Origin: a virus
Taxonomy: Duplodnaviria; Caudoviricetes
Strand: one strand, 5' to 3'
Virus record (IMG/VR): IMGVR_UViG_3300042890_002798
Location: 1-58,038 of that record
DNA length: 58,038 nucleotides
The notes under the pieces are model-generated. The model was given only the letters and a program-made list of their open reading frames with translations. It did no database searches and was not told the origin of the DNA. A program made the position numbers and the translations under genes. Below, in pieces: positions 4,759 through 50,400 of the stretch (its first letter is position 1; each line of letters opens with the position of its first letter).

Positions 4759-4775
4759 TCAGGGAGGGATCAATC

Positions 4776-5096
4776 ATGTCTTTAATTTATGAAACCGTAA
4801 TTAATGAAATGCAGGTTAAAACAAATATTGATAATAAGAAAAATGTTGTGTTCATAATAAATTTTAATATCGTTGGAAGTGATGATGGGTTTTCGTCATA
4901 TGAAAATTTAAATTATGAAATAGGATATGACAAATATTCTGATTTTGTCTCTTATGAAAATCTGACCAAAGAAATTGTCTGTTCATGGATTACTAAATCA
5001 CTTGGCTACGAGCTTGACAATATCAAAAACAAAATTAAACTAAACATTGAAGAAATGAAAAATCCAACCGTTAAATCTATTCCTCTCCCATGGTAG
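4776..5096 (+). CDS. Tail fibre assembly/chaperone-like protein
   Basis: GGGAGGG RBS, ATG 4776; FVSYENLT..V.SW...PLPW pattern typical of genes following fibres. Confidence 0.6.
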   Translation: MSLIYETVINEMQVKTNIDNKKNVVFIINFNIVGSDDGFSSYENLNYEIGYDKYSDFVSYENLTKEIVCSWITKSLGYELDNIKNKIKLNIEEMKNPTVKSIPLPW

Positions 5097-25763: not shown

Positions 25764-26114
25764 TTACTTTTTGACTGCGGTTTTTGCAGGCGCTGAAATC
25801 TTGACGGGCTTTTCAATAAACTCGTCTTCCAGCTTGTTAAGGATTTCAGACATTGTCGTAATGCGCTTGCCGATTTCTTCCTGATTTTTATCGACAAGTG
25901 GATAATGTTCAACAGATTTGTCGACTGATTTGGCGTCTGTCAGTTCGTGCAGCAGCCTTTCAATCATGTCCTGTATTCTGGAATCCTTATCCAGAAATGG
26001 CATATTCCCGCGTCCTTTTGCAGCGCGCGCTTCCTGCACAGCGTTAGTCGAGATAGACCGCATACGGTCATCAAGGCTGAAGGTATATGAAGGAATGGCA
26101 GTGATCATTGTCAT
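25764..26114 (-). CDS. Hypothetical protein
   Basis: GGAGAAACA RBS. Confidence 0.65.
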   Translation of the reverse strand: MTMITAIPSYTFSLDDRMRSISTNAVQEARAAKGRGNMPFLDKDSRIQDMIERLLHELTDAKSVDKSVEHYPLVDKNQEEIGKRITTMSEILNKLEDEFIEKPVKISAPAKTAVKK

Positions 26115-26272
26115 TTGTTTCTCCTGTTTCCTATGCTGATTGTGGTTTTTACTCTAGGCTGGTCTTTGTTAACGTAGTTTTGACCTTTGAAATATTTACG
26201 CATCGTTGGGTAGACATCTGCGGCAATCGCACAGGCGCATATCGCTACGACCCATAGACCTATATAAATCAT
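26111..26272 (-). CDS. Small membrane protein, 53 aa
   Basis: MIYIGLWVVAICACAIAADV...; ATGA overlap with the next gene. Confidence 0.5.
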   Translation of the reverse strand: MIYIGLWVVAICACAIAADVYPTMRKYFKGQNYVNKDQPRVKTTISIGNRRNK

Positions 26273-26274
26273 GC

Positions 26275-26538
26275 TTATTCATCCTCATCAAACGGGCCTC
26301 CGTAGAGGCGCGGCCCCATCGTTGAAAATTGGTTCTTGGGGCTGTATGGGCTGAATTCATTTCCATACGGGCCAAACTGGTTTTTAAGGCTGTATGGATA
26401 GAATTCATTATTCATCAGGCTAAACTCATTGTTGATGCTTTCGCCATCAAACATGTTGCCTGACAAATTTCCAATGTATTCATCTGCCAGCGCATTCACT
26501 GGTAGAAAAATACAAAATGCTGCTGTTATGATTTTCAC
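26275..26538 (-). CDS. Small exported protein with N(E/Q)F..Y.PYS repeats
   Basis: Signal peptide (ALA-D); GGAGAAACA RBS with GTG start. Confidence 0.65.
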   Translation of the reverse strand: MKIITAAFCIFLPVNALADEYIGNLSGNMFDGESINNEFSLMNNEFYPYSLKNQFGPYGNEFSPYSPKNQFSTMGPRLYGGPFDEDE

Positions 26539-26592
26539 TTGTTTCTCCTGTTTTTTGATTATTTCCTACACTCGCACGCACAAGCCCGCAAG

Positions 26593-27564: not shown

Positions 27565-28053
27565 TCATTTTGATCTTGTTTTTGGTGCATATCTTTTCCC
27601 TGTAATGTGTGACCAATTTTGTCCACTTTTTATTGCGGTAATCGTTGTTATACTTGTTTTATAATCATCAGATATTGTTTCATATTTTCTGTTATCATTA
27701 AATATTTTTAAAACTTCATCGCCTGTAAGTTTTGATCCCGCTCCATATCTTTTTGGTCTTTTTTGTAAAATCCCTTTTTTTGACGCATCTATTGAATTGT
27801 CTTTTGCTGTTCCCTCCCACAAATGATCTGGATTAACGCATAATTTGTTATCGCATGAGTGGCATACAAAATTGTCTGGAATATTATCTTTATATATTAA
27901 ATATGATGCTCTATGCGCAGGCATAGTGCGTTTTGTTGATATTGTAAATGATCCATATCCAGAACTACTTACTGCGCCAGTCCATAACCAGCAACCACAA
28001 TTTGGCTCAGGTATAAATTTTCTTTCAAATCTTTCTACTATTGTTCTGCTCAT
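27565..28053 (-). mobile_element. HNH homing endonuclease
   Basis: GCWLWTG..GYG..AHRASY..VCHSCDN..CVNPDHL; AT-rich relative to neighbours. Confidence 0.9.
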
Positions 28054-28361: not shown

Positions 28362-28588
28362 CAGAAATCCTCAGACTGCTTCTTGCTGGATTTACCGCCT
28401 TCATACGGCTCGGAAACAGCGCCTTTGATATATTTTTTCCCTGCCTTGGTTTCGTTAAGCCAGGCGGAAAGGCGGAGTTTCTCGCCCTTCCACATAATGT
28501 CTCCGCTATAGTCGGGCTGGGTTTCCTTCTCCTTCTTCTCATTGCGAAACAGAGAAAAGGTGTTGTCTTTCATTTCGTATTCAGCCAT
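28361..28588 (-). CDS. Small ssDNA-binding protein-like
   Basis: FRN.KK....PDYSG..LSAW..GKKY; acidic C-terminus ending in F. Confidence 0.65.
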   Translation of the reverse strand: MAEYEMKDNTFSLFRNEKKEKETQPDYSGDIMWKGEKLRLSAWLNETKAGKKYIKGAVSEPYEGGKSSKKQSEDF

Positions 28589-29201
28589 TGGTCTGATCCT
28601 TTATTTTGGCCTGGGTTTCTTTGAACAGTTTGGTGATCTTCACCTGATCCAGAACTGTAAGCTTTTGCTTGTCTTTGATGTTGTCGTCACGCCATTTTTC
28701 GCAGTCTTCCAATGTTTTGCAGGATCGAAGGCTTTCCTCCATCTTGTCCAGAAGAAGGATAGACTTTTCATCCTTTACGTTAGGAGATTCAGGCAATTGG
28801 TGTTTCTGGTCAGAGTCAGCATCCGGCTCGCCTGTCGGGATCTGAAACAGATCGCGTATGAAATACTTCTGCGCGTAGGAGGCTGCCGAGCCATAGGCTT
28901 GAGCGCCTGAAGCTGACACCTGAACAGTCCTTTTTACAGGTCCGTATTCAGCTCCGCCCTCATGGTAAATCCAGAAAGCATATTCGCAATGCAGGGATTT
29001 TTCCCTCACCTCGCATGATACTTCGTCAGCCACGATGATAAGCCCATGCTTGGCCATGAGCTTGCCAGCCTTTGCCTTGATCTGATCGTGGGATACGAAT
29101 TTGTAGTTGGCAAATTTGTTATCCTGATCAGCAACAAGACCTTCTACCTCTTCACATACCTGCTTGATTGCTTTGGCTATTTCTGGAGGCATTTTAGGCA
29201 T
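28581..29201 (-). CDS. ERF-family single-strand annealing protein
   Basis: YKF..., QAYGSAASYAQKY..F.I.TGE.DAD. Confidence 0.85.
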   Translation of the reverse strand: MPKMPPEIAKAIKQVCEEVEGLVADQDNKFANYKFVSHDQIKAKAGKLMAKHGLIIVADEVSCEVREKSLHCEYAFWIYHEGGAEYGPVKRTVQVSASGAQAYGSAASYAQKYFIRDLFQIPTGEPDADSDQKHQLPESPNVKDEKSILLLDKMEESLRSCKTLEDCEKWRDDNIKDKQKLTVLDQVKITKLFKETQAKIKDQTNG

Positions 29202-29829
29202 TCTGTTTCTCCGCAAGTTTGTTCATTAGTTTTTCAACCATCTGCTCTACTTCGGACAGGAACTTCCTTACCATTTCCTCAGACGTGGCGATGAAGCAAT
29301 CATCCCTGTCTACACGTTTGATAAACAGTTTCAGACCTTCTGGAGATCGTGGATCATAACTGACGAAATCGCACCATTTGCGACCTGTGCAGGCCATTTG
29401 CCACTGCATCTGGGTGAAGTATTTTTCCGGCACATCGTCGTTTAGTATGTATCCCAGGTGGGTGTGTGTCTCCGGGCACTTAATTTCGATGAGGCCATGA
29501 TCTCCAACGAGGCCGTCAGGGCTAGCCCCAGCGTCATTGATAGAAGGATGAGGAACAAAACCTGTTTCAGACACCTCATCAAAGCATATCGACCTGTATT
29601 CATTTCTTGCCTCTGGCTCCGTCTTTGTTCCCCAGTCCATTGATGAGCTGGTCGGGAATGTGTAGGGCTGTTTGGTGATGCGCTCGATGGCAAGCTGGGA
29701 CATGTAGGCGTCGCGGCTTTTGGACCATCCTGTCTTTGTTCTTGCCATAAGATCTGCGAGTCTTGATGCAGTCACTTTCCCGACGCGCTCAGATTTCCAT
29801 TCATCGGTTCCCTGATTTGGCGTGTTCAT
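29194..29829 (-). CDS. YqaJ/lambda-exonuclease-like recombinase
   Basis: QGT.EW...R.G..TAS; GASPDGL; EIKCP; QMQWQM. Confidence 0.92.
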   Translation of the reverse strand: MNTPNQGTDEWKSERVGKVTASRLADLMARTKTGWSKSRDAYMSQLAIERITKQPYTFPTSSSMDWGTKTEPEARNEYRSICFDEVSETGFVPHPSINDAGASPDGLVGDHGLIEIKCPETHTHLGYILNDDVPEKYFTQMQWQMACTGRKWCDFVSYDPRSPEGLKLFIKRVDRDDCFIATSEEMVRKFLSEVEQMVEKLMNKLAEKQNA

Positions 29830-30038
29830 TCGGATTCCTCCCATGCTTTGTTGAAAGCCTTTACCGCAGCTTCCAGCTTTTTCTGATGCTGGATATTTAC
29901 AAAAACCCTGTTGTTTTCTGGCTTGAAGCCTTCATTCATGTCATAGATGTCCATGGCGATCGTGCCTCTTTGACCGTAATGAACATCAAGTTTTATCTGA
30001 TCTTCTGAAAACCACGTGACGTAAGTTGCTATTCTCAT
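29826..30038 (-). CDS. Hypothetical protein
   Basis: GGAGAAACA RBS; first gene of the leftward operon. Confidence 0.65.
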   Translation of the reverse strand: MRIATYVTWFSEDQIKLDVHYGQRGTIAMDIYDMNEGFKPENNRVFVNIQHQKKLEAAVKAFNKAWEESE

Positions 30039-30069
30039 TTTGTTTCTCCGTTGTTTATTAATTACTTAT

Positions 30070-30170
30070 GGATTACCTATACGAAACCTGCTAGCATGTC
30101 AACTGTAAACAGTGCTAGGAAAAAATATATTTGCATGTCCTTGACAGGCGTTTTGGTCTGTGTCGATGAT
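30070..30170. promoter_or_regulatory. Divergent promoter region
   Basis: TTGACA on - (30097-30102) and on + (30141-30146) between divergent operons. Confidence 0.55.
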
Positions 30171-30189
30171 AGCAAATCAGGAGATGGAA

Positions 30190-30417
30190 ATGGACGATTT
30201 ACACGAACACGCAAGCAGCCACTCAAACGTAAGCATGACCAATGCCGATTGGCGCAAGGTGATGGCGGATAGCCTTGGAGATCGGGCTCCGCCTAATACC
30301 AGAGAACGGTATCAGATTTACCGGGATGCTGGCGTTCCGGAGACGATGATAAACATTCTGGATGATATGGTTTTCTATGCTGCTCTACAGAAGGTGGGCA
30401 ATGAGAGCGCAGATTGA
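30190..30417 (+). CDS. Hypothetical protein
   Basis: AGGAG RBS. Confidence 0.6.
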   Translation: MDDLHEHASSHSNVSMTNADWRKVMADSLGDRAPPNTRERYQIYRDAGVPETMINILDDMVFYAALQKVGNESAD

Positions 30418-30757
30418 AAACAGCATTCAGAGATCAATAGTCGCATATTTGCGCACTGTGGTCCGCGACTGTGTGGTTATGGCGATCCCGAATGCGGCGC
30501 GTCGGACGATCAACGGAAAGCCCATGAATGCGGCTCCGGGTTTGCTTCCGGGCGCTCCCGATCTGGTCATAGCCTTTCCCGGTGGCAAGGTTTTGTGGTT
30601 GGAAGTCAAGGCTCCTAAAGGCGTCGTCAGTGATAATCAGGTTCTTGTCCATGAGCGTCTGGGCGAGATCGGGCATACGGTATACATCGTCCGCTCGATA
30701 GATGACGTTAAGGAAGTTATACAAAAATTAAACATAACAACGAGAGAGAAACAATGA
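30401..30757 (+). CDS. VRR-NUC nuclease
   Basis: E..IQ..I; G..PG.PDL; WLEVKAPKG..S..Q. Confidence 0.88.
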   Translation: MRAQIENSIQRSIVAYLRTVVRDCVVMAIPNAARRTINGKPMNAAPGLLPGAPDLVIAFPGGKVLWLEVKAPKGVVSDNQVLVHERLGEIGHTVYIVRSIDDVKEVIQKLNITTREKQ

Positions 30758-31422
30758 CCAAGAAAGCTGTATGGAACAAAGACAACGAGGAATTCTTGTC
30801 AAAGTTGCTAAACGCAGGTGCGACTGCGGCGCAGGCATCCGATGAGATTAATAACAAATTCGACATGTATTTTTCTCGCAATGCAATAATCAGCAAGGCA
30901 AGAAGATTAAAGCTGGAATTTGTCGTCAGGGTTGGAAGGAGTTATATTCCCGGATCTATAAAATATAATCAAACATATAAGATTAAAAAGGCAGATAATG
31001 TTGAGTTTATGAAAGCGTGGAAAGCAAATATCAAGATTCACGAATTGGAATCAATGTTCGGGATCAAGCGTAAATCTATACTTGAAAAGGCAAAAAAGCT
31101 AAAACTTGATAAAAGAGAAATAGATGAAAAGAGGTCGATTAGAGATATCAATTATTCAAAAGATATAAAATTCAAAAAGCTTCCGTCATTCATACGGGAA
31201 AGACAATCCTTTCCCAATCCAAAGGCTCTTGGTCTGAAGCTTTTGGAGCTTCGCAATAACCAATGCAGATACATCCTCGGCAGCGAGAGGCCATCGGATT
31301 TTCTGTATTGCGCTGCGCCAGTGGAGCCTGACTCTCCGGTCCCGTATTGCCCAACCTGTCGGGCGATTGTGTACGTAAAACCGTCAGGGCCGTCGCATAA
31401 GATTTTCAAGCTATACAGATGA
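30754..31422 (+). CDS. gcrA: GcrA-like cell-cycle regulator
   Basis: W....G.....SRNAIISKARRL HTH; LLEL...QCRY..G...FLYC...PYC..C..IVY C-terminus. Confidence 0.8.
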   Translation: MTKKAVWNKDNEEFLSKLLNAGATAAQASDEINNKFDMYFSRNAIISKARRLKLEFVVRVGRSYIPGSIKYNQTYKIKKADNVEFMKAWKANIKIHELESMFGIKRKSILEKAKKLKLDKREIDEKRSIRDINYSKDIKFKKLPSFIRERQSFPNPKALGLKLLELRNNQCRYILGSERPSDFLYCAAPVEPDSPVPYCPTCRAIVYVKPSGPSHKIFKLYR

Positions 31423-31462
31423 GAAAACGCCCGGTCTGTCTGAGGCGTTGACAGTCCGGGCG

Positions 31463-31491
31463 TTGACAGGCCGAGTCATTCGGCTTAGGAT
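31463..31491 (+). promoter_or_regulatory. Sigma70-type promoter with GANTC in the spacer
   Basis: TTGACA-17nt-TAGGAT; GAGTC at 31473-31477. Confidence 0.65.
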
Positions 31492-31563
31492 ATATTTCGG
31501 CTTCGTAAGAAGACAGCAACTTCTTATGAAACCTGAACATGAACAGTTGACCAGAGAACCGTT

Positions 31564-31869
31564 ATGTCTGTTGAGAAGAATAGGCCGTCTTCGGCGGAAA
31601 ATCAATCCGCTAAATCCTATACACAGGATTATTCGAAGGCCGTTGACTATCATTTTTCCAAAGAAGCCAAGGTAGAACAGGCAGAACTGTCTGTTCTCAA
31701 TAGCTTACGCAATGCTGTGAGCTTTGCCCAGCTTGCTGAAGATCACCGTTCTTTATTTGATCCTGTCGGATTTGAGCATTGCGCTGAGCAATTTCTCGCC
31801 AATGCCCGCAAGGCATCCGAAGCACTTCGGACTCTTAAATCTCTGAAAAAGGAGGCATCCAAGGGCTAG
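31564..31869 (+). CDS. Hypothetical protein
   Basis: 101-aa ORF downstream of the promoter. Confidence 0.55.
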   Translation: MSVEKNRPSSAENQSAKSYTQDYSKAVDYHFSKEAKVEQAELSVLNSLRNAVSFAQLAEDHRSLFDPVGFEHCAEQFLANARKASEALRTLKSLKKEASKG

Positions 31870-32265
31870 GCAGCGCCCTTCCATGCGTCCTTAACCATCC
31901 GCCGGCAAAGGCGAGAGACCCGGCATATGCCGATCGAGTCAGGACAACAGTTGCCTTTGGGAAATAGTAAAATGGGGCCTGTCCCGGGCCAGTGGGAAAT
32001 CTTGCGGAAAGATCCACCATACCTGACGAATGCATACGATACACAAGTCCTCATGGTGAGGCCGGAGCCGGCAAGCAGATGCCGATAGTAGGGAGAACCT
32101 ACATCTGAGTCAGGGAATACCAGAACCGCTGCCAAACCCGTCCGTATAGACCCAATGGCCAAGGTCCAGGTCGCCGGGTCGCCCACTCCAGACTCAATTG
32201 TCCGGATTAGTGGTATCGGAGCATACGGGAGAGGGAGCTATGCCCAAATTCAGGAGAATGTTTAC

Positions 32266-32754
32266 ATGGAAGATGATTACCTGCCTGACAATGTGAGGCC
32301 AGAGAAGCACGCCTATCGAGATGAGGATATCAGTAGACGCCACAGAATGTGGGGGTTTAACTGTCCAGCCGCCGACCTTGATTTTGTGATGGTGGAATAC
32401 AACATCGGCAAGCCTGTCGCGCTTGTTGAGTATAAATATTACCTGCACAAGATCACGGATTTTAACCATCCCACATACAGGGCGATTCGCTGTCTGGCGG
32501 ACGAATACAAAAGTGGACCGTTGCCATTTATCGTATCGCTTTATTCACGTGACGACTGGTCGTTTAGGGTATACTGTGTGAATGAAGCTGCTGAGAAGCA
32601 TTTCTGTTCTGGCGAGCATTTGTCTGAACTGGAATATGTCCAGCGTCTTTACCGAATGCGCCGTCAGGCACTGGCCAAACATCTGGAAAATCAACTCAAC
32701 ACAACGATCAAGGAAAAATCAAATGGCGCAATTGTCAGCCCAATCTATCCGTAA
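32266..32754 (+). CDS. PD-(D/E)xK-like hypothetical protein
   Basis: AGGAG RBS; DLDF..VEY...ALVEYK. Confidence 0.55.
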   Translation: MEDDYLPDNVRPEKHAYRDEDISRRHRMWGFNCPAADLDFVMVEYNIGKPVALVEYKYYLHKITDFNHPTYRAIRCLADEYKSGPLPFIVSLYSRDDWSFRVYCVNEAAEKHFCSGEHLSELEYVQRLYRMRRQALAKHLENQLNTTIKEKSNGAIVSPIYP

Positions 32755-33190
32755 GCTATGCGAGGGCGAGCGTCCTATGGTGTATCCGTTTGTTGCGGAA
32801 AAGAAGGTGGTCAACGGAACGAGCTATGGGTTATCCGCAGCTTCATATGACGTAAGGATCGGGCATGATCTTGTGTTGCATCCAAAGCAATCATCCCTGG
32901 CTCATACGTTTGAAGATTTCTGTATGCCGGATAATGTTGTCGCATATGTAGTAGATAAATCGACTTATGCGAGAAGATTTATATCAGCATTGAATACATT
33001 AATAGATCCTGGGTTTGTTGGTAATCTGACGCTTGAATTGGTTAATCTTGGCAATCACGTGGTCCATATTAATTCTGGCGACCCGATATGCCAGATTGCT
33101 TTTCACTGGCTGGATGAGCCAACTGAAATTCCATACAAGGGTAAATACCAACATCAAACAAAAGAAGCTCATGGGGCGCGTTATGAATGA
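32723..33190 (+). CDS. dcd: dCTP deaminase / dUTPase-family protein
   Basis: SYDVRI; DKSTYAR; IDPGF.G.LTLEL.N; ICQ..F; Y.GKYQ. Confidence 0.88.
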   Translation: MAQLSAQSIRKLCEGERPMVYPFVAEKKVVNGTSYGLSAASYDVRIGHDLVLHPKQSSLAHTFEDFCMPDNVVAYVVDKSTYARRFISALNTLIDPGFVGNLTLELVNLGNHVVHINSGDPICQIAFHWLDEPTEIPYKGKYQHQTKEAHGARYE

Positions 33191-33449
33191 TCCTGTTAAT
33201 AATCCAAAGCATTATAATTCACATCCATCCGGGATCGAATGCATTCAAATAACCGAGCATATGAATTTTTGTTTGGGAAATGCGGTGAAGTATATCTGGA
33301 GAGCGGGATTAAAGGGAGGCGCTATAGAAGATCTGGAAAAATCAGTCTGGTATTTGCAAAGGGAAATACAAAGAAGAAAAACATATAATTGGAGAGAATC
33401 CTGTGAAACAGCTAAGGCCCTATCAAGAGAACGCAATTCAAGAGCTTAG
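33183..33449 (+). CDS. DUF3310 (SaV-like) protein
   Basis: DPVN.P.HY...GIECI...FCLGNAVKYIWR...EDLEK..WYL. Confidence 0.88.
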   Translation: MNDPVNNPKHYNSHPSGIECIQITEHMNFCLGNAVKYIWRAGLKGGAIEDLEKSVWYLQREIQRRKTYNWRESCETAKALSRERNSRA

Positions 33450-34893
33450 ATCGGCTTTAGCTTTAAAGCTAAAACCAGTCCTGTCAGCTCCAACGGGATC
33501 AGGTAAAACGAGAATCGCCTCAGAGATATTCGCTCTTGCTCGCGTAAAAAATAAGCGTGTGTGTTTCTGTGTTCCGTTTTTGTCCCTTATCCGCCAAACC
33601 TATCGGGCATTTGTTGAGGCTGGGATAGATGAGCGGGAGATCGGGATAATTCAGGCTAATAATGAACTCACAGACTGGTCGCGTCCGGTTCAGATCGCCT
33701 CGATTGATACGCTATCCCGCCGGCCAAAATTCCCGGATGTCGATGTTGTGATCTTTGATGAAGTCCATAACAATTCTGTCGTTTACAAACGATGGATGGA
33801 GGCATCTCCCAACACCTATTTTATCGGATTGTCTGCGACTCCATGGGCCAGTGGCATGAGCAAGCTCTGGGACAAAATGATCGTTGTCTCGACAGTCGCT
33901 GAGCTTATTAAAGATGGATACCTGTCTCCATTCAAATATTACGCGCCGTCTGTTCCTGACCTGCGAGACGTCAAGATAGTTGCTGGTGATTATCAAAAGG
34001 ACCAGCTTGCACTGGCCATGAGCAAGGCTGATCTCATAGCTGACATCGTGACTACGTGGATAAAGAAAGGCGAGAACAGGCCGACCTTTTGCTTTGCCGT
34101 GAACCGCCGCCATGCTCAGGAGATCCAGCACCAGTTCCTGAATGCCGGAATCCCGGCTGGTTACGTGGATGCCTATACGCCCGTCGAGGAGCGTGAGGCC
34201 ATGATTAATCAGCTACGGGACGGAGAATTAAAGGTCATCTGTAATATCGGAACGATGACGACTGGCGTTGATGCGCCTTTTGTGTCCTGCATCATTCTAG
34301 CGCGCCCGACAAAGAGTGAGATGCTTTTTGTGCAAATTATCGGTCGCGGCTTGAGGACTAATCCAGATAAACAGGATTGTATTATTCTGGATCATTCCTC
34401 GACTGCCCTTAATCTCGGCAGGCCAGATGAGATATTTTACGATCATTTTCGTGGTGGTCAGTCTCCTGTTGGTGGGACGAAAGCAGACAAGAAGGAAAAA
34501 GAAGATCCAAAGCCGAGAGCCTGCCCGAGTTGCGGATTCCTGCTTTTGCCTAAAGAAAAGGATTGTCCATCTTGTGGATATGTATTCCCTCCGCCCAGCA
34601 GTGATGTATATGTAGCAGATGGCGAGCTTGCGGAATTGGGTTCTGGTGGTAAGCTACGCAAGGTCAAATTTGACGAGAAGCAATCTTTCTGGTCTGGATT
34701 GCTTTATCTTGCTGAAGAGCGTGGTCGGGCGCGTTCATGGGCGTTGGCCAATTATAAGAACAAGTTTGGGGTTTGGCCGAGAAATCTCAAGGATAAACCT
34801 GAGTATCCCACAAAATCGGTAAAAGACTTTGTAAAAAGTCGAAGTATCGCGTGGGCAAAAAGAATGGAAAAAGAAAGAATATTAACGGGATGA
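33403..34893 (+). CDS. Superfamily II DEAD/DEAH helicase with a Zn ribbon
   Basis: LRPYQ, APTGSGKT, DEVH, SATP, QIIGRGLR, CPSC twice. Confidence 0.95.
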   Translation: MKQLRPYQENAIQELRSALALKLKPVLSAPTGSGKTRIASEIFALARVKNKRVCFCVPFLSLIRQTYRAFVEAGIDEREIGIIQANNELTDWSRPVQIASIDTLSRRPKFPDVDVVIFDEVHNNSVVYKRWMEASPNTYFIGLSATPWASGMSKLWDKMIVVSTVAELIKDGYLSPFKYYAPSVPDLRDVKIVAGDYQKDQLALAMSKADLIADIVTTWIKKGENRPTFCFAVNRRHAQEIQHQFLNAGIPAGYVDAYTPVEEREAMINQLRDGELKVICNIGTMTTGVDAPFVSCIILARPTKSEMLFVQIIGRGLRTNPDKQDCIILDHSSTALNLGRPDEIFYDHFRGGQSPVGGTKADKKEKEDPKPRACPSCGFLLLPKEKDCPSCGYVFPPPSSDVYVADGELAELGSGGKLRKVKFDEKQSFWSGLLYLAEERGRARSWALANYKNKFGVWPRNLKDKPEYPTKSVKDFVKSRSIAWAKRMEKERILTG

Positions 34894-35075
34894 GTTACTT
34901 CAAGAAGCCAGTGGTCGTTGAAAAACGCAAGCTTGGACCGAACAGATGGAAGAAGTCTGCGCCAGATCAGCCTGAAAAGCCGGTTTACAGCGATATAGAA
35001 AAACAGCTACACAAGCATAGCAAGCGGAACTCGACCTATTTCCCGCCATCCTGGTGGCTACCCGGAGAAAAGTGA
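34890..35075 (+). CDS. Hypothetical protein
   Basis: ATGA-coupled to the helicase. Confidence 0.5.
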   Translation: MSYFKKPVVVEKRKLGPNRWKKSAPDQPEKPVYSDIEKQLHKHSKRNSTYFPPSWWLPGEK

Positions 35076-35612
35076 ATGGCACGCCCTGGCCGTAAGCGGA
35101 AAATCGAAGCGCCGCGTTTTCCAAACGGCCAGGTAAAGCCGGCGGAACAAGAGCCGTCTCCAACTCTGGTTAAGCGCCTGGCTGCCTATTCTCTGGTCGG
35201 AATGCAGGATGCGCAATGGGGTACTGTTCCGGGTATATTCTATCTCAGCAGGAAGATAGACGAGACTGAATATGAGACGGCCAAGCGGTTCTCAAGTCTC
35301 TACAGCCAGTATATTGCGGTTATAAACGGCCCACGTAGGCCAAAAACATCTACCGGAGAGCAGAGAGGCCAATCGGCTCAGATTGATGTGGATACGTTTC
35401 TGGGCCAGCAAGAGGCATCCAGGCATACCGATGTCATGGACAGGTATAATGACGCCTACACAGCCCTGCAAAATCTTGGGGCTGGTGTGGCTACAGAGGT
35501 CATTAATTTCTGCGCTGATTCGGGTCAGACGCCATGCGGATGGGAAGGGATGATAAAATTAAGAAAGGGTTTATCTGTTCTGGCTGTGCTTTGGAATGTA
35601 AAAAGCAGGTAG
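35076..35612 (+). CDS. Putative late transcription regulator (DUF6456-like)
   Basis: MAR.GRKRK...PNG N-terminus, LRKGL..LA..W C-terminus; last gene of the middle operon. Confidence 0.55.
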   Translation: MARPGRKRKIEAPRFPNGQVKPAEQEPSPTLVKRLAAYSLVGMQDAQWGTVPGIFYLSRKIDETEYETAKRFSSLYSQYIAVINGPRRPKTSTGEQRGQSAQIDVDTFLGQQEASRHTDVMDRYNDAYTALQNLGAGVATEVINFCADSGQTPCGWEGMIKLRKGLSVLAVLWNVKSR

Positions 35613-35615
35613 GAT

Positions 35616-35643
35616 TTGACAAGATTGATGGATTGTATAATAT
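35616..35643 (+). promoter_or_regulatory. Sigma70-type promoter
   Basis: TTGACA-16nt-TAATAT, overlapping TGTATAAT. Confidence 0.6.
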
Positions 35644-35649
35644 GTTTAT

Positions 35650-35751
35650 TGGCATTGTTTCGTCAGATGCTGTTTCTCCAACTTGTCCGTGATTTCTTCC
35701 TCCCTGCATGGACGCCCGCCCAGTCACAATAGTCTGGGCGGGATTTTTTTT
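35650..35751 (+). ncRNA. Candidate ~100-nt sRNA with anti-RBS motifs
   Basis: Lies between promoter and terminator with no ORF; contains UGUUUCUCC and CUUCCUCCC. Confidence 0.5.
35715..35751 (+). terminator. Rho-independent terminator
   Basis: CCCGCCCAG-10nt-CTGGGCGGG followed by a T8 run. Confidence 0.85.
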
Positions 35752-36019
35752 AGGCTTTGATGGCCTTGTATCTAACCGCAGAGAACATGGTCGTCTTGGC
35801 GAGCTGCTGGTAAACAGACGGATCAAGCACCTTTTCGGCTTCCTTGGCGGAAATGCTGGTGCGCTCCTGAAGGCCGACTGTTACACGGAAGCGATCTCCT
35901 TCGATAACGTCAACTCCCGTGGCCAGGATCATGGACTTGACTGCGTCCAGTTCATCCTGAAGGGCATCCATCTCGATTTTAAGAGCGGCATAGCGGTCAG
36001 CGAGTTCATTCTGGCTCAT
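35750..36019 (-). CDS. Hypothetical protein
   Basis: GAGGG RBS; own promoter upstream. Confidence 0.7.
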   Translation of the reverse strand: MSQNELADRYAALKIEMDALQDELDAVKSMILATGVDVIEGDRFRVTVGLQERTSISAKEAEKVLDPSVYQQLAKTTMFSAVRYKAIKA

Positions 36020-36055
36020 TTGGTCCCTCGTTGGTTTGTGTTGTTGACGAAGATG

Positions 36056-36083
36056 AGATTACCACATCCCGCAATCCTGTCAA
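36056..36083 (-). promoter_or_regulatory. Early sigma70 promoter
   Basis: gggcTTGACA-16nt-TAATCT on the minus strand. Confidence 0.6.
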
Positions 36084-36104
36084 GCCCATATCAAAATATT
36101 TTTG

Positions 36105-36805: not shown

Positions 36806-36988
36806 TTAGTTCAGGAAATCAGATGGGAATTTAGCTTCGATTTCGTATCCCATATCTTTGATCTGCTTCAGAGCATCTTTTGTCAGTGTCTTGGTCCCAA
36901 GGAGCTTGGCAAATTTATTAGCCATATCGCAGTGGGGATAAGCTTTGTCTTCGCCAAAAACGTTTTTGATCAGGACGGTGATTTTCAT
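36806..36988 (-). CDS. Hypothetical early protein
   Basis: GGAG RBS; stop codon abuts the ribozyme. Confidence 0.7.
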   Translation of the reverse strand: MKITVLIKNVFGEDKAYPHCDMANKFAKLLGTKTLTKDALKQIKDMGYEIEAKFPSDFLN

Positions 36989-37021
36989 TTTGTCTCTCCA
37001 AGGTTTGTGTTTATGTCCCTA

Positions 37022-37088
37022 TAAATACCGTTCTAAATAAAATCTGTCAAGCCCTTTTTGTTGCAAAGTGCGAAAAATCTGGTATAGT
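37022..37088. promoter_or_regulatory. Back-to-back promoters
   Basis: Minus: TTGACA-17-TATTTA; plus: TTGCAA-16-TATAGT (37061-37088). Confidence 0.6.
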
Positions 37089-37651: not shown

Positions 37652-39016
37652 ATGAAAAAGATTTGGCCTGCTGATAAGGTAGAAAGAAGAGAAGTCAATA
37701 AGTTAGTGCCTTATGCGAGGAACGCCAGAACGCATTCTCCTGAGCAGATTGACCAGATCGCGGCGAGCATTCGGGAGTGGGGCTGGACAACGCCTGTTCT
37801 GATTGACGAGGAAGGCGGTTTGATCGCTGGCCATGGTCGTGTCATGGCTGCCAAGAAGCTCGGGATCGGCGAGATTCCCGTGATGGTCGCGTCTGGCTGG
37901 TCTGATGCCCAGAAAAAGGCTTACGTTCTGGCTGACAATAAACTGGCGCTAAACGCCGGCTGGGACACGGAAATGCTCAAGATCGAATTGTCCGATCTCT
38001 CTGAGATGGACTTTAACCTGGACTTGACCGGGTTTGGCCCTGATGAACTGGCAATCCTGCTGGCGGAGAAAACGGAAGGTTTAACGGATCCCGATGAAAC
38101 GCCCGAACCGCCTGCTGAACCGGTTAGCGTTCTTGGCGATGTTTGGATTCTTGGGAATCATAGGTTGGTATGTGGAGATGCCACCAATGTTAATGACTGG
38201 AATACTTTAAAAGTAAGCCATGGATTCATTCTTTTTACTTCTCCACCTTACAATCTTGGTAGTGGGGCAAAATTAAGCGGCAATAAGTCCATAAGCAAGA
38301 ATGGCAACGCTTACGGTGATTACACAGATAATGTGTCATCTAACGAATATTTTTGCCTATTAGATTCAATACTTTCTACTTCTATGACATTTGTTGATCT
38401 ATCTGTTATAAATGTCCAGCCGTTGGCTAATTCAAAAAGGCCAATAATTGAGTGGATGGGCAAATGGGCGACAAATCTTATTGACATAGTCACTTGGGAT
38501 AAGGGCCATGCAGCACCACCGATGGCTAAAGGTGTGATGTCGAGTCGTTATGAATGGATATTTTTATTCTCAAATAAGGAAAACGCATCTAGATCAATAC
38601 CATATTCTTCCTGGCAGGGAAAATTCAGCAACGTATATAACGCGCCGCCGCAGCGGAATAATGAATTTGCCAGCGTTCATGGCGCTACATTTCCTGTGCA
38701 TTTGCCAGAATACATAGTTGGGGATCTTGTAAACAGATGCAGAGGCGTGGTCGATTGTTTTATGGGAACGGGAACAACGATGATTGCTGCTGAGAAATTA
38801 GGTCGAGAATGCCGAGGTATTGAAATCAGTCCGGCCTATGTAGACATCTGTGTGGAAAGATGGCAGAATTTCACGGGAAAAGAAGCTCATCTGGAATCTA
38901 ATGGAGAGTCTTTTAATAATTTGAAGGCGAAAAAAAATCATGTCCAACGATCAGAAAGTAAAGAAACCGGGAATGCCTCCCTTCAAGCCGACGGAAGAAA
39001 ACCGGAAGATGGTTGA
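37652..39016 (+). CDS. ParB-like domain fused to an N4-C/N6-A DNA methyltransferase
   Basis: PYARNARTH..IAGHGR..LADN; FTSPPYN; H.ATFP; DCFMGTGTT. Confidence 0.92.
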   Translation: MKKIWPADKVERREVNKLVPYARNARTHSPEQIDQIAASIREWGWTTPVLIDEEGGLIAGHGRVMAAKKLGIGEIPVMVASGWSDAQKKAYVLADNKLALNAGWDTEMLKIELSDLSEMDFNLDLTGFGPDELAILLAEKTEGLTDPDETPEPPAEPVSVLGDVWILGNHRLVCGDATNVNDWNTLKVSHGFILFTSPPYNLGSGAKLSGNKSISKNGNAYGDYTDNVSSNEYFCLLDSILSTSMTFVDLSVINVQPLANSKRPIIEWMGKWATNLIDIVTWDKGHAAPPMAKGVMSSRYEWIFLFSNKENASRSIPYSSWQGKFSNVYNAPPQRNNEFASVHGATFPVHLPEYIVGDLVNRCRGVVDCFMGTGTTMIAAEKLGRECRGIEISPAYVDICVERWQNFTGKEAHLESNGESFNNLKAKKNHVQRSESKETGNASLQADGRKPEDG

Positions 39017-47435: not shown

Positions 47436-50400
47436 TGGACATTAAAGATATCCGTGACAAGCAAATCCGCGATGCTTTGATGATGGCGGCTGATCGTGCC
47501 TCCCGTGGCCGCAAGAAAGATTCGCCTAAAGAAAAACCGATGCCCAGGGATTTGGAGACTTTTTACAATCCGGAGGCAGGTTCGCGAATAAAAGACGGAA
47601 TTTTGGAGCCTGGTGACTATGGTCCTAACTATGGCGCAGATGTAAAGAATTGGCGCGAAAAGCGCGGAGCGTATGGTCGGGAAAAAGGCTACAATCCCTG
47701 GGCCGATCCGGAGAATATGTATACTCATCCGTCCGAGGAGCGCCACGACCCGAATGACCCGATTTATAACGTCAGCCCGGAGGAATATCGAAAGGGCGCT
47801 TATGGTCGCGGAGTATATGCTTTAAGGAATGGTGGTCGCGCCGGTATGGCTACAGGCGGCGATCCAACAAGTAATTACATAAGCTCGCTATATCAAAACA
47901 TTATGGGCCGAGAGGCTGATGTGGGCGGCGCTGAATATTGGAAACAGCAGCTTGAAGAGGGAAATATTACTCCTTCAGATATATTGTATAATTTTGCGCA
48001 ATCGCCTGAATTCAAAAATGTTTATCAATCTGATCCGAGCAAGGCTGTAAGCTCTCTTTATCAAGCTGCTCTAGGCAGATCTCCGGATCAGGCAGGTCTT
48101 GATTACTGGAATCAGCAAGTAAAAAGTGGTCTAGGATTAGGAGATTTGGTTTCTGGGTTTACGGGTAGCGAAGAAGGTAGGTCTTACCAAAGCTACAAGT
48201 TCCCTGGACTGTATAACATTAATGATAGTGTTGCCGATCAAGACAGAAAGTATTCGGAACGATTAGTTGCGGATTTGTATCATTCCATTTTAGGTCGTGA
48301 GCCAGATCGGGAAGGTTTTAATTTTTGGACTCGTCAAATGATTGATGGCAAACAATCATATGATGATGTTGCTAATGCTCTTTTCGATTTGCCAGAAGCA
48401 AAAGAAAATTTTGTCAATCAAACTTACAAACAATTTTTGGGTAGAGAGCCGGATGCAGAGGGTAAAAAATATTTTACTCAAGCTCTACAGTCAGGACAAG
48501 CAACGCCTGATCAAATTTATGAAATAATTCAAAATAGCGAAGAAGCTGGCGATTTCGAAATATCTAACTTTATTCAGGATCAATATAAAGGATTGACTGG
48601 GCGCGATCCATCCAGGCAAGAGCTAAACTCAGCATTAGATCAATTAAAAAGTGGAGCTGTTACATTTGATCAGTTTCACTCCAATATGTTTAATTCTCCC
48701 GAATCTCAACAATATCAGGCAAGTAATTTTGAACCGTATCAGGTAGCGAGCGCTGAAGGTTCGGTAACCGTCGCTCCCAAACAGCTTCGAACTGCTTATG
48801 AGTATAGCAAAGCTAATGATGAACTCATTCGAAGCCTTCCTATTGAGCAGCAGGTGGGCGCTCTTCTTCAACAGGAAGGTGGAATTTGGGTTGATAAAAT
48901 TTTAAATCCCAACACACCGAAAGAAATAAAAGATCAAGCTTTAAAGCAATTAGAAGGCATTGTTAATGTTGTAGCTAACCGCGCCGCAGTTGGTTTGACA
49001 GAGAATAGCGGAGGCAAGAAAAGTCCTTGGCGAGGCTGGTTTGATCGTCAGGAAAACGATCCAAAAAGCGTTACCAGTCAAATTTTGGCTCCTTCAGCTT
49101 TTTCCGCAATGAAAATTGGAGTGTCAAAATTAGCTAAAGAAGGCTACAATGCTATTGTAAATCAAGCTATTCCAAACTTTAACAAAGAAGAATATCAACC
49201 AATTATGGATATGATCAAGGGCGTTTTGTCTGGTCAACGTCCTGATATAACCCAAGGTGCAACACATTATAAAGCAAATTATGTCCATCCAGGCTGGGCA
49301 AAAAGGCTCCCTCTTCACACGGATTTAGGAGGAGCGCCTGGAGGAAAGGGACCATATCATCAATTTTATGGAGCCAAGGACAGGGCCGCTGAAGCCCAGC
49401 AGGCCAGATTTGGTGTATCCTATGGTGGCGCAGATGTTGACCCGGCCCTTGCTGGAGCTGGCGCAGGCGTAACTGGCGGTGGCAGTGGGACTGGTTATAT
49501 TCCGGGCGGCGGATCTGGATATGTTCCAGGCGGTGGCGGAATATCTGGACCCGCCGATGTTTCAGGAGCCGGCGGAGATTATACCGGCGGTCATGGCGGT
49601 GGCGGAACCGGGCATGTCGGCGTCGGCACCGGTCATGGCGGCATCCACGGTGGGACACACACAGGAACTCCGCATGTGACTGGCGGCGTTCACACTGCTG
49701 GCCACGGCACGACCTATACCGGCGGTCATGGCGGCCCGCATGTAACGGGTGGCGTTAGTTACCTTGATTCCGGTGGCTATCATCCCGGTGGCTTTCATTC
49801 CGGCGGCGATTTTGGCTCTTATGCGGGCTCGCATGGATTTGGGCATTCGACAGTCGGCCACGGCGGTCATCATGGTAGCCATGTCAGTCCATACCATGGC
49901 TGGTCGTGGGATATGTTCCACTCACAAAACCCTTACGGCATTCATCACAGCTTCAAAAACGGCGGCGCTGTTAAAGACGCTCTCCGCATAGCCAGAGCTT
50001 CAGGTGGCGGCGCATGGACTCGCAAAGAGGGCAAGAACCCTGAAGGCGGGTTGAATGAAAAGGGCCGCGCCTCTCTTCGCGCGCAGGGCCATGACATCAA
50101 GCGCCCACAGCCGGAGGGCGGTTCTCGCAGGGATAGCTTCTGCGCGAGAATGAAGGGCATGAAGGCCAAGCTCACCAGTGCTGAAACGGCCAATGATCCG
50201 GATAGCCGGATTAATAAGTCGCTTCGCAAATGGAATTGTGCGGACGGCGGTGCGATTGATGATGCTCTTATGGTGGCTCGCAAATCTGGCGGAGAAGTCT
50301 GGAACAAACCGCGCCCTAAATCTCTCGGTAAGCCCGAAAAGCTGACATCAAAAGAAAAGGCAAGCGCCAAGCGCATGGCCAAGGCTGCTGGCCGTCCTTA

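What the first reader, a model, noticed from the sequence alone, without database searches (positions are those of the whole stretch)
35616..35751. Candidate sRNA complementary to a ribosome-binding sequence shared by several early genes
Seen: promoter, ~100 nt with no ORF, then a strong terminator. The RNA contains UGUUUCUCC (35671-35679), complementary to GGAGAAACA. That 9-mer precedes the starts of four leftward genes (plus-strand sites 26116-26124, 26540-26548, 29204-29212, 30041-30049), and a fifth with one mismatch (36991-36999). It also contains CUUCCUCCC, an anti-SD motif like those of alphaproteobacterial sRNAs. Inference: one sRNA shuts down early gene translation.
Basis: partly seen in the sequence, partly recalled or inferred. 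Interest (0 to 1): 0.7.

Follow-up and report, generated by a model that had tools for sequence, protein, structure and literature searches.

The report
Phage anti-ribosome-site small RNA gene
A complete uncultured phage genome carries a roughly 100-base non-coding RNA gene, also present in diverged form in related phages, whose exposed stretches mirror the ribosome-binding sites of the phage's own leftward early genes, so it probably lowers or switches off their translation, although no transcript has been seen.

Summary
At 35616-35751 there is a sigma-70-like promoter, about 100 nt with no conserved ORF, and a 9-bp GC stem followed by U8. UGUUUCUCC (35671-35679) and CUUCCUCCC (35696-35704) are both predicted unpaired. 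GGAGAAACA occurs 6 times (0.47 expected), always on the minus strand, and four copies are the RBS of leftward genes.

The window is a complete 58-kb phage record. Seven distinct relatives carry a promoter, small RNA and terminator unit downstream of the homologous 178-aa gene. A covariance model built from one subgroup finds the window element as its best hit in the window, but weakly (19 bits).

In that subgroup the RNA is 96-100% identical, while the adjacent gene is 79-88% identical. In 5 of 6 genomes, far more translation-initiation regions complement the element than complement its shuffles. The orthologous targets (Erf annealing protein, 70-, 87- and 116-aa genes) stay complementary through different sequences.

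My best reading is a trans-acting anti-RBS sRNA for the phage's early recombination operon (confidence about 0.55). There is no transcript evidence, the seeds are short, and hybridisation energy alone does not single out the targets.

This scan has noted similar phage RNAs on other DNA; I did not check those notes.

The parts
35616..35621 (+). -35 box TTGACA
   Evidence: A TTGAC[AT]/TTGATT box stands at the same relative place in L009, L010, L011/G007, L012, L013, G005 and G006, while the spacers differ.
35638..35643 (+). -10 box TAATAT (16-nt spacer); alternatively TATAAT at 35636-35641 with a 14-nt spacer
35650..35751 (+). Predicted transcript of about 102 nt. The 5' end is inferred from the -10 box, not observed.
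   Evidence: Fold. It is the best hit of covariance model R1 in the whole window: 35654-35749, 19.0 bits, E 0.014.
35651..35671 (+). SL1, a weak 6-bp hairpin
35670..35681 (+). Seed 1, CUGUUUCUCCAA, single-stranded; contains UGUUUCUCC
   Evidence: Unpaired probability is 0.9 or more for 35672-35683. It complements 4 RBSs exactly over 9-10 nt.
35684..35714 (+). SL2, an 8-bp stem with a 15-nt loop (35692-35706) that carries CUUCCUCCC (35696-35704)
35715..35751 (+). Intrinsic terminator: CCCGCCCAG / CTGGGCGGG stem, then A and T8
   Evidence: There is no T-run on the minus-strand side.
30041..30049 (-). Predicted target: RBS of the 70-aa first gene of the leftward operon (29826-30038)
   Evidence: Orthologues in G005, G006 and G007 keep 9-bp complementarity to their own element.
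29203..29212 (-). Predicted target: RBS of the Erf-like annealing protein gene (28581-29201), 10-bp match
   Evidence: Orthologues: G004 9 bp (1 G.U), G005 and G006 9 bp, G007 12 bp (1 G.U).
26540..26548 (-). Predicted target: RBS of the 87-aa gene, which has a signal-peptide-like N-terminus (26275-26538, GTG start)
   Evidence: Orthologues: 7 bp in G004 and 9 bp (1 G.U) in G005, G006 and G007.
26116..26124 (-). Predicted target: RBS of the 116-aa gene (25764-26114)
   Evidence: Orthologues: 9 bp (G004) and 10 bp (G005, G006).
36991..37001 (-). Predicted target: RBS of the 60-aa first gene of the small leftward cluster (36806-36988), 11 bp with one G.U
29835..29842 (-). Possible target of the SL2 loop: RBS GGGAGGAA of the exonuclease gene (29194-29829), 8 bp
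   Evidence: This is a weaker candidate.
30745..30753 (+). Possible target: RBS AGAGAAACA of the GcrA-like gene (30754-31422), 8 bp
4760..4769 (+). Possible target of the SL2 loop: CAGGGAGGGA before the 106-aa gene 4776-5096, 10 bp with one G.U

Best explanation
The element is a gene for a trans-acting, non-coding RNA of about 100 nt. It has its own host-type promoter and ends at a U8 intrinsic terminator, at the end of the rightward replication operon.

The RNA folds into a weak 5' hairpin, a single-stranded seed (CUGUUUCUCCAA), a second hairpin showing CUUCCUCCC in its loop, and the terminator.

The seeds pair with the Shine-Dalgarno sequence plus the spacer (GGAGAAACA[G]) of several phage mRNAs. 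These are chiefly in the leftward early recombination operon (70-aa first gene, Erf-like annealing protein, 87-aa and 116-aa genes), plus the first gene of a second leftward cluster. Pairing would hide the ribosome-binding site from the 30S subunit, lowering or shutting off translation and perhaps exposing the mRNA to decay.

Shown here: the anatomy, conservation of the unit in relatives, strong sequence constraint in one subgroup, and excess complementarity to translation-initiation regions that orthologous targets retain through different sequences.

Inferred, not shown: that the RNA is transcribed, that the pairing happens in the cell, that the effect is repression, and when it acts.
For: (1) Anatomy.

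(2) Synteny. Downstream of the homologous 178-aa gene, 7 of 7 distinct relatives have a short non-coding stretch ending in a hairpin plus T-run. These 7 come from 13 loci, of which one is cut at its contig end and the others are duplicates. In L011 the stretch follows an inserted gene. Six have promoter-like hexamers at the same distance; from the -35 box to the T-run measures 112-136 nt.

(3) Homology. Model R1, built from 5 sequences of one subgroup, finds L009 at 34.6 bits (E 2.5e-5 in 321 kb), L016 at 21.4 bits and L013 at 18 bits. Its best hit in the whole window with filters off is 35654-35749 at 19.0 bits (E 0.014); the next hit scores 13.4.

(4) Constraint. Between G005, G006, G007 and L010 the RNA is 96-100% identical. 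The adjacent gene is 79-88% identical (third codon positions 51-70%) and the 45 nt upstream are 60-93% identical. Between L010 and L009, 4 of 12 terminator pairs change on both sides and none breaks, while the loop keeps CUCCAUUC.

(5) Targets, by exact 8-mer complement in the 22 nt before gene starts, compared with 500 dinucleotide shuffles of the element: window 8 of 81 (shuffles 2.08+-1.42; 1 of 500 reach it); G004 5 of 46 (5 of 500); G005 13 of 83, G006 12 of 62 and G007 9 of 50 (0 of 500 each). The 9-mer TGTTTCTCC hits 4 TIRs (1 of 500). Against all same-length windows of each genome, 25 of 11,552 reach the window element's count, 47 of 6,968 reach G004's, and none of 12,402, 8,308 and 6,810 reach those of G005, G006 and G007.

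(6) Orthologous targets stay complementary through different pairing sequences. For example, the window pairs GGAGAAACA with UGUUUCUCC, while G004 pairs GGAGAGACA with UGUCUCUUC.

(7) Hits fall mostly in the leftward operon: 5 of 14 of its genes against 3 of 67 others in the window, p 0.003. The minus-strand bias has p 0.0012, 0.0003 and 0.006 in G005, G006 and G007.
Against: No transcript evidence exists for any member. The 5' end is inferred.

The window element's similarity to the family model is weak (19 bits; the tool states its E-values are rough), and the model missed it with default filters.

Seeds of 9-11 bp are short. Genome-wide duplex-energy scans rank many intragenic sites as good as or better than the RBS sites.

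Allowing one G.U pair, the window's excess is modest: 6 of 74 TIRs against 2.62+-1.65, and 15 of 300 shuffles reach it.

Complementarity is not cleanly specific to the cognate genome. The window element matches 8 of 47 G004 TIRs, more than the 6 of 74 in its own genome.

G003 is not significant with Watson-Crick pairs only.

Cofold ranking supports the window (3 of the 4 exact sites are in the top 6 of 81) but does not single out the leftward genes in G005 or G004.

In G003 and G004 the anti-RBS stretch is buried in a stem.

Gene starts were called by my own heuristic, which includes some spurious ORFs. The window's plain strand bias is not significant (p 0.12).
Confidence: 0.55

Rival explanations
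1. The element is only the 3' untranslated end and intrinsic terminator of the rightward operon, and its complementarity to ribosome-binding sites has no function.
For: It lies directly after the last gene of a long + operon. In G003 and G004 the element starts right after the stop codon with no room for a promoter. Promoter-like hexamers are common: 6 in 3 kb against 3.1 expected.
Against: A plain terminator does not need about 65 conserved nt in front of it. The RNA is 96-100% identical while the neighbouring gene is 79-88% identical. In G007 the RNA sits in a different local context, after an inserted gene and behind its own promoter-like boxes. The excess of TIR complementarity over shuffles and over all genome windows also argues against this reading. 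A 3'-UTR-derived sRNA would still be the main reading.
Confidence: 0.15
2. The RNA is a general anti-Shine-Dalgarno decoy aimed mainly at host mRNAs or at all strong ribosome-binding sites (host shut-off or global tuning), not a specific regulator of the phage's leftward genes.
For: All members show CUCC-type motifs in loops. Complementarity is not specific to the cognate genome. The SL2 loop matches generic strong SDs such as GGGAGGAA.
Against: The matches extend 4-6 nt beyond the GGAG core into the gene-specific spacer (AAACAG in the window, GAAU-GGAG-AU in G005). In G005 and G006 the SL2 loop complements an unusual RBS, GGAUAGGGA, over 9-11 bp. Rightward and late genes mostly show only 4-7 bp. 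The host is unknown, so host targets could not be examined.
Confidence: 0.12
3. The RNA acts in cis as an antisense partner of read-through transcripts from the convergent leftward cluster (37001 to 35750), for example as an RNase III processing signal or to insulate convergent transcription.
For: The terminator has a T-run only on the + side. Leftward transcripts ending at the 89-aa gene (35750-36019) would therefore probably run through the element and be fully complementary to it.
Against: In L010, G005, G006, G003 and G004 the neighbouring genes differ in identity or orientation, yet the element is kept. This reading does not explain the RBS matches elsewhere. It is compatible with the main reading as a second activity.
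Confidence: 0.1
4. The 9-mer at 35671-35679 is a leftover or live ribosome-binding site of a minus-strand ORF, or the region encodes a small protein.
For: All 6 copies of GGAGAAACA are on the minus strand. ORFs of 107 aa (-) and 38 or 52 aa (+) overlap the region.
Against: On the minus strand the 9-mer is followed by GCATCTGA, and the first ATG is 15 nt further on with no usable spacing. The 107-aa ORF runs antisense through two real genes and the terminator. The 38-aa ORF starts at the -35 box with no SD. In the L010 group, 1-nt indels separate G006 from G005 inside the element, and an ATG is lost in G007.
Confidence: 0.03

Closest known systems
c4 antisense RNA of phages P1 and P7 (immI region)
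   Same: A phage-encoded small RNA whose loop sequences pair with complementary sites around a ribosome-binding site of phage mRNA and block expression (passages read in PMC12197685 and PMC8198154). In G003 and G004 the element lies just upstream of a gene whose RBS (GAAGAGAC-AUG) it complements, as c4 lies upstream of icd/ant.
   Different: No Rfam family was matched. The window RNA has its own promoter, and its predicted targets are 5 or more genes in other transcription units 5-10 kb away. No lysogeny or immunity module was seen among the proteins I scanned. That c4 is cut out of its operon transcript is recalled, not read here.
Cuckoo / alpha-r14 / CcsR (RSs0680) / NfeR1 sRNAs of Alphaproteobacteria
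   Same: Hairpin loops show a C/U-rich anti-Shine-Dalgarno motif, and the window loop CUUCCUCCC differs from CCUCCUCCC at one position. The host is possibly alphaproteobacterial, given a GcrA-like gene and terminase relatives in Paracoccus, Roseobacter and Rhizobium phages at 38-57% identity.
   Different: The family is defined by 2-4 adjacent hairpins that each carry CCUCCUCCC (PMC4615179, passages read). Here only one loop has a near copy, the other seed is single-stranded and differs, and relatives carry other motifs (CUCCAUUC, UCCCUAUC). There was no Rfam hit. These are chromosomal sRNAs, whereas this one is phage-borne.
UCCC-loop sRNAs of Firmicutes (S. aureus RNAIII and Rsa RNAs)
   Same: Several C-rich loops in one RNA each bind the RBS of different mRNAs (as summarised in PMC4615179, passage read).
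   Different: A different phylum, no sequence relation, not phage-encoded, and the targets there are host virulence genes.
T4 RegB endoribonuclease and RegA translational repressor (proteins)
   Same: Phage-encoded shut-off of early mRNAs through their Shine-Dalgarno region. RegB cuts within GGAG of early mRNAs (PMC1702504, abstract seen in a search listing). The RegA comparison is recalled.
   Different: Those are proteins. Here the proposed agent is an RNA that masks the site rather than cutting it.
Lambda OOP and P22 sar antisense RNAs; lambda PreS/LPR1
   Same: Small phage RNAs that regulate after transcription (PMC12197685 passages; 10.1101/2024.10.31.621285 abstract and outline).
   Different: OOP and sar are cis-antisense to a single target (recalled). 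PreS acts on host genes such as dnaN. None is described as addressing a set of phage genes through a shared RBS.

Membership tests
Cuckoo / ar14 / CcsR sRNA family | 2-4 adjacent hairpins, each with CCUCCUCCC in the loop (PMC4615179) | tested here: not met
   Only SL2 carries a near copy (CUUCCUCCC, 35696-35704). SL1 and the terminator loop lack it.
Cuckoo / ar14 / CcsR sRNA family | Match to the curated covariance models in Rfam | tested here: not met
   There were 0 matches at gathering score in the whole window. None of these families appears among the 7 weak matches at E up to 10 in 35400-36000. That these families are in Rfam is recalled.
c4 antisense RNA (P1/P7) | Match to the Rfam C4 model | tested here: not met
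   No hit. The presence of a C4 model in Rfam is recalled.
c4 antisense RNA (P1/P7) | Loops complementary to RBS-containing sites of phage mRNA | tested here: met
   Seed 1 and the SL2 loop complement RBSs. This concerns how it works, not membership.
c4 antisense RNA (P1/P7) | Encoded upstream of its targets in the same operon and released by processing | tested here: not met
   In the window no co-directional gene follows the element, and its targets lie in other units. The arrangement in G003 and G004 does resemble c4.
Generic trans-encoded base-pairing sRNA | Own promoter and intrinsic terminator, and no coding frame | tested here: met
   By sequence only: promoter boxes are conserved with diverged spacers, the terminator is present, and frame-breaking indels occur in relatives.
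Generic trans-encoded base-pairing sRNA | Detectable transcript of defined size | not testable with these tools
   No RNA run could be listed for this sequence.
The phage RNA family defined here (model R1, built from L010, L011, L012, L027 and L043) | Covariance-model match at the syntenic position downstream of the 178-aa gene | tested here: inconclusive
   Window 35654-35749 scores 19.0 bits (E 0.014) and is the best of 24 hits in 58 kb with filters off, but it was missed with default filters. L009 scores 34.6 bits, L016 21.4, L013 18 and L017 12.

The most novel reading that the evidence does not exclude
These phages mark their early leftward genes with 'private' extended ribosome-binding tags. 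They also carry one small RNA with two or three separate seeds (a single strand, an internal loop and the terminator loop), each matched to a different tag class and co-evolving with it. This would be an RNA-only translational switch for a whole gene set, doing what RegA and RegB do in T4. If the similar notes from other phage groups in this scan hold up, it would be a widespread and so far undescribed layer of phage gene control.
Probability: 0.35. Interest if true: 0.8.

Novelty: new variant of a known kind. Interest (0 to 1): 0.62.

Why it matters
Post-transcriptional control of phage gene timing is known mostly from proteins (T4 RegA and RegB) and from single-target antisense RNAs (c4, sar, OOP). 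A conserved phage sRNA that addresses a whole early operon through shared RBS tags would add a simple RNA-based timing or dosage device. It can be recognised from sequence alone, so it could be sought in the many uncultured phage genomes. It also makes concrete predictions: named seed and RBS pairs, natural covariation between lineages, and a heterologous reporter test that does not need the unknown host. My searches and the passages I read of a 2025 review of phage-derived sRNAs showed no described case of this kind.

Tried and rejected
RNA evidence: no RNA holder was listed for window 35000-36100, so expression could not be examined.

Close DNA relatives: there was none among GenBank phages, and none with the 178-aa protein by tblastn. 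A 20-nt pattern from the element found nothing in viral contigs. The one 98% relative (G001) is a fragment that lacks window 30323-35869, so it says nothing about the RNA. Its four RBS 9-mers are intact, and its 60-aa gene RBS differs at two spacer bases.

Prophage or host search: the 178-aa alignment found nothing in genome contigs.

L003, a 36% relative of the 89-aa gene, is not syntenic.

Energy scans led nowhere. Full-length duplexfold gave implausibly long helices everywhere. Scans with 20-nt seeds ranked intragenic sites first. Cofold cannot model loop-RNA kissing and did not single out the leftward genes in G005 or G004.

A matrix using every in-frame start as a 'TIR' was pure noise.

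The MAFFT alignment of the six type-1 elements misaligned the window sequence. The model-based alignment A5 is contaminated by reverse-strand terminator hits. I therefore did not run a formal pair-count test and read the terminator covariation directly.

Rejected readings: a remnant minus-strand RBS or ORF and a small protein gene; membership of a known Rfam family.

The window's terminator loop (UCACAAUAGU) has no RBS partner.

Earlier findings by place returned nothing.

Full report
WHAT THE WINDOW IS. The window is a complete virus record of 58,038 bp with direct terminal repeats. PHROG and Pfam scans give the layout.
- Late and structural genes lie on the + strand: terminase at 39295, portal, an ejection protein, and endolysin at 23244.
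- A leftward operon runs from 30038 to 25027. It holds a 70-aa gene, a RecE/YqaJ-type exonuclease, an Erf-like annealing protein, an SSB-like protein, two HNH endonucleases, a regulator-like protein and several small genes of unknown function.
- A rightward operon runs from 30160 to 35612. It holds a VRR-NUC nuclease, a GcrA-like protein, a dCTP-deaminase-like protein, a helicase and a 178-aa protein of unknown family.
- A small leftward cluster runs from 36988 to 35750.

The finding sits between the 178-aa gene and the convergent 89-aa gene. No integrase or repressor turned up among the 30 proteins I scanned. No cultured close relative exists. The nearest named terminases are from Paracoccus, Roseobacter and Rhizobium phages at 38-57% identity. 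Together with the GcrA-like gene, this hints at an alphaproteobacterial host. That is an inference.

THE OBSERVATION.
- TTGACA-16-TAATAT at 35616-35643 is the best promoter-like site (10 of 12) in the 3 kb scanned. Such sites are not rare there: 6 were found against 3.1+-1.7 in shuffles.
- From about 35650 the RNA folds into a weak hairpin, a single-stranded stretch with UGUUUCUCC, an 8-bp hairpin with CUUCCUCCC in a 15-nt loop, and a 9-bp GC stem followed by U8. The MFE is -34.8 kcal/mol with z -3.6, and 0 of 200 shuffles fold as well. Both seeds have unpaired probability of 0.9 or more.
- GGAGAAACA occurs 6 times, all on the minus strand, against 0.47 expected; 0 of 100 shuffles reach 6. Four copies lie 1-2 nt before the start codons of the 70-aa, Erf-like, 87-aa and 116-aa genes. 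One copy is the element itself.
- The one-mismatch copy at 36991 is the RBS of the first gene of the small leftward cluster. With a G.U pair it gives 11 bp.
- No known RNA family matches: 0 hits at gathering score, and the best weak hits score 15-17 bits against thresholds of 39-50.

IS IT A GENE? EVIDENCE FROM RELATIVES. The 178-aa protein has 19 homologues at 46-99% identity. An alignment of them brought in 13 loci from metagenome and viral contigs. One locus is cut at its contig end and several are duplicates, leaving 7 distinct relatives at 44-54% protein identity. An alignment of the 89-aa protein brought 17 more loci. Three of the 11 new loci contain the 178-aa homologue and belong to records of 34-62 kb, which I fetched whole.

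In all 7 distinct relatives the homologous gene is followed by a short non-coding stretch that shows C/U-rich motifs in loops and ends in a hairpin plus T-run. In L011/G007 this comes after an inserted gene.

Six relatives (L009, L010, L011, L012, L013 and the G005/G006 records) also have TTGAC[AT]/TTGATT and TA-rich boxes at a fixed distance, while the spacer differs. The length from the -35 box to the T-run is 112-136 nt; in the window it is 136 nt.

Two relatives (G003 and G004) have the element directly after the stop codon and before a co-directional gene. I call these type 2.

A covariance model built from five sequences of the L010 subgroup gave these results.
- It finds L009 at 34.6 bits (E 2.5e-5 in 321 kb), G003/L016 at 21.4, L013 at 18 and G004/L017 at 12. 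All these hits lie at the syntenic place.
- The window was missed with default filters. With filters off, the best of 24 hits in the whole window is 35654-35749 at 19.0 bits (E 0.014, rough); the next hit scores 13.4. All three modules align, and UUUCUCCAACUU lies opposite CUCCUUUCUAACUU.

I therefore treat the window element as a probable but weakly supported diverged member of this family.

Constraint is clear within the subgroup. The RNA is 96-100% identical among G005, G006, G007 and L010. The neighbouring gene is 79-88% identical (third codon positions 51-70%) and the 45 nt upstream are 60-93% identical. The differences are 1-nt loop insertions, which rule out a reading frame, and one G.U to G-C change in a stem. 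Between L010 and L009, 4 of the 12 terminator pairs change on both sides, one changes on one side and none breaks, while the loop keeps CUCCAUUC. A conserved loop over a covarying stem is what one expects if the loop sequence itself is used.

DOES IT MATCH RIBOSOME-BINDING SITES MORE THAN CHANCE? I called genes with a simple heuristic (longest non-overlapping ORFs, with starts chosen by SD and codon). This includes some spurious ORFs. I then counted the 22-nt upstream regions that contain an exact complement of any 8-mer of the element and compared the counts with 500 dinucleotide shuffles of the element:

| Genome | TIRs hit | Shuffles reaching this count |
|---|---|---|
| window | 8 of 81 (shuffle mean 2.08+-1.42) | 1 of 500 |
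| G004 | 5 of 46 | 5 of 500 |
| G003 | 2 of 32 | not significant |
| G005 | 13 of 83 | 0 of 500 |
| G006 | 12 of 62 | 0 of 500 |
| G007 | 9 of 50 | 0 of 500 |

The single 9-mer TGTTTCTCC hits 4 TIRs, which 1 of 500 shuffles reach.

I also compared each element with every same-length window of its own genome on both strands. Of 11,552 windows, 25 reach the window element's count; some of these (such as those starting at 30011 and 30021) lie opposite an RBS that carries the same tag. For G004, 47 of 6,968 windows reach its count. For G005, G006 and G007, none of 12,402, 8,308 and 6,810 windows do.

Hits concentrate in the leftward genes. In the window they are 5 of 14 operon genes against 3 of 67 others, p 0.003. 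The minus-strand bias has p 0.0012, 0.0003 and 0.006 in G005, G006 and G007, 0.055 in G004, and 0.12 in the window with the raw gene list.

In the L010 subgroup three separate unpaired parts address three RBS classes.
- The seed UGGUUCUCCUUUC pairs with AAAGGAGAAC.
- The SL2 loop UCCCUAUCC pairs with the unusual GGAUAGGGA.
- The terminator loop AUCUCCAUUCCG pairs with CGGAAUGGAGAU over 12 bp.

COVARIATION WITH TARGETS. Reciprocal-best orthologues keep their complementarity although both partners differ between lineages:

| Gene | window | G004 | G005 | G006 | G007 |
|---|---|---|---|---|---|
| Erf-like | 10 bp | 9 (1 G.U) | 9 | 9 | 12 (1 G.U) |
| 116-aa | 9 | 9 | 10 | 10 | no orthologue row |
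| 87-aa | 9 | 7 | 9 | 9 | 9 |
| 70-aa first gene | 9 | no orthologue row | 9 | 9 | 9 |

Rightward genes mostly show 4-7 bp; the helicase is an exception at 7-9 bp.

Between the window and G004 the recurrent tag changes from GGAGAAACA to GGAGAGACA and the element from UGUUUCUCC to UGUCUCUUC. G[GA]AGAGACA occurs 6 times in G004's 35 kb. Four copies are leftward RBSs, one is the RBS of the gene just after the element, and one is the element itself. In each phage the sRNA has a U opposite the position where its own targets vary between A and G.

WHAT SPEAKS AGAINST THE READING.
- There is no transcript for any member.
- The window's link to the family is weak.
- The seeds are short, and hybridisation energy alone ranks many intragenic sites as high or higher.
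- With one G.U pair allowed, the window's excess is modest: 6 of 74 TIRs against 2.62+-1.65, and 15 of 300 shuffles reach it.
- The elements are partly interchangeable between genomes. The window element matches 8 of 47 G004 TIRs. What is conserved may therefore be a lineage-wide RBS style and its mirror image rather than strictly private pairs.
- In G003 and G004 the anti-RBS stretch is paired with an upstream RBS look-alike. This fits a cis-acting switch for the next gene at least as well as a trans-acting RNA.
- Cofold ranking puts 3 of the 4 exact sites in the top 6 of 81 in the window, but it does not single out the leftward genes in G005 or G004.

MECHANISM AND RIVALS. My best reading (0.55) is a trans-acting sRNA that masks the SD plus spacer of the early recombination operon and of the first gene of the second leftward cluster. 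This would lower their translation as the RNA accumulates. The SL2 loop may add genes with strong SDs, such as the exonuclease and the 4776 gene.

The rivals are:
- a mere 3' end and terminator (0.15);
- a general anti-SD decoy or host-directed RNA (0.12);
- a cis-antisense partner of read-through from the convergent cluster, which is plausible because the terminator is one-directional (0.10);
- a remnant RBS or small ORF (0.03), contradicted.

COMPARISON WITH KNOWN SYSTEMS. It works most like the c4 RNA of P1 and P7, whose loops pair around an RBS of phage mRNA (PMC12197685 and PMC8198154, passages). It also resembles multi-loop anti-SD sRNAs such as the cuckoo/CcsR family (PMC4615179, passages) or RNAIII. 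It is a member of none of them: there is no model match, and the cuckoo definition of 2-4 hairpins each with CCUCCUCCC is not met. Functionally it would parallel T4 RegB (PMC1702504, abstract in a search listing) and RegA (recalled). My literature searches and the review passages I read showed no phage sRNA described as regulating a set of the phage's own genes through shared RBS tags.

EARLIER NOTES OF THIS SCAN. A word search returned 39 notes of the same kind on other genomes, including actinobacterial, marine giant and archaeal viruses. They are unchecked AI notes. I tested none of them and they did not enter my scores. They do mean that this theme is not new within the scan.

VERDICT. This is a new variant of a known kind, the anti-RBS base-pairing sRNA, here phage-borne and multi-target. 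Interest is 0.62.

Noticed in passing
window 27565-28053 (-): This HNH endonuclease gene is absent from the 98%-identical relative G001, where about 550 nt are missing at exactly this place. It looks like a mobile homing endonuclease insertion.
   Followed up: partly
G001 (L006) 487-702, corresponding to window 29836-29839: The close relative has an extra 214 nt holding a 72-aa ORF between the 70-aa gene and the exonuclease gene. Its RBS is GGGAGGA, the sequence that the SL2 loop of the window RNA would complement.
   Followed up: partly
L010 716-802, L027 8553-8638, L043 8564-8648, L011 3530-3582, L012 1122-1202 (all minus strand): In the L010 subgroup a second element lies between the 178-aa gene and the sRNA promoter, on the opposite strand. 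It is a hairpin carrying CUUUCCUCCCUUGG followed by a terminator. Model R1 scores it at 12-19 bits. In G007 it follows an 87-aa leftward gene. It could be a second sRNA or a 3' UTR.
   Followed up: partly
L010 about 786-799; same in L027 and L043: A perfect 14-bp palindrome, AGTCAAATTTGACT, overlaps the -35 box of the sRNA promoter. It could be an operator for a dimeric regulator or back-to-back -35 boxes. It is absent in G007, where the sRNA gene lies elsewhere.
   Followed up: no
G004 (g4r 30628-30750) and G003 (g3r 3532-3650); L017 and L016: In the type-2 relatives the anti-RBS stretch GUCUCUUC is paired in a hairpin with an upstream look-alike of the RBS (GAAGAG / GAAGGGACA). The gene right after the terminator starts with GAAGAGAC-AUG. 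This layout resembles a cis switch or the c4-icd arrangement.
   Followed up: partly
window 30754-31422 (+) and 37652-39016 (+): A GcrA-like protein (Pfam PF07750, 45 bits) and a ParB-domain DNA methyltransferase. This pair recalls alphaproteobacterial cell-cycle control and hints at the host.
   Followed up: no
window 37022-37088: A divergent promoter-like region. TTGACA-17-TATTTA on the minus strand lies in front of the 60-aa gene, and TTGCAA-16-TATAGT with an upstream TG lies on the plus strand at 37061-37088.
   Followed up: no
window 49300-49389 (-): This is the second-best hit of model R1 (13.4 bits, E 0.26). It is a C/U-rich stretch (UCCCUUUCCUC) followed by a hairpin and U5, lying antisense inside the 1018-aa gene. 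It is probably chance.
   Followed up: no
It is intragenic and antisense to the 1695-aa ejection-protein-like gene, and it is also present in G001.
   Followed up: partly
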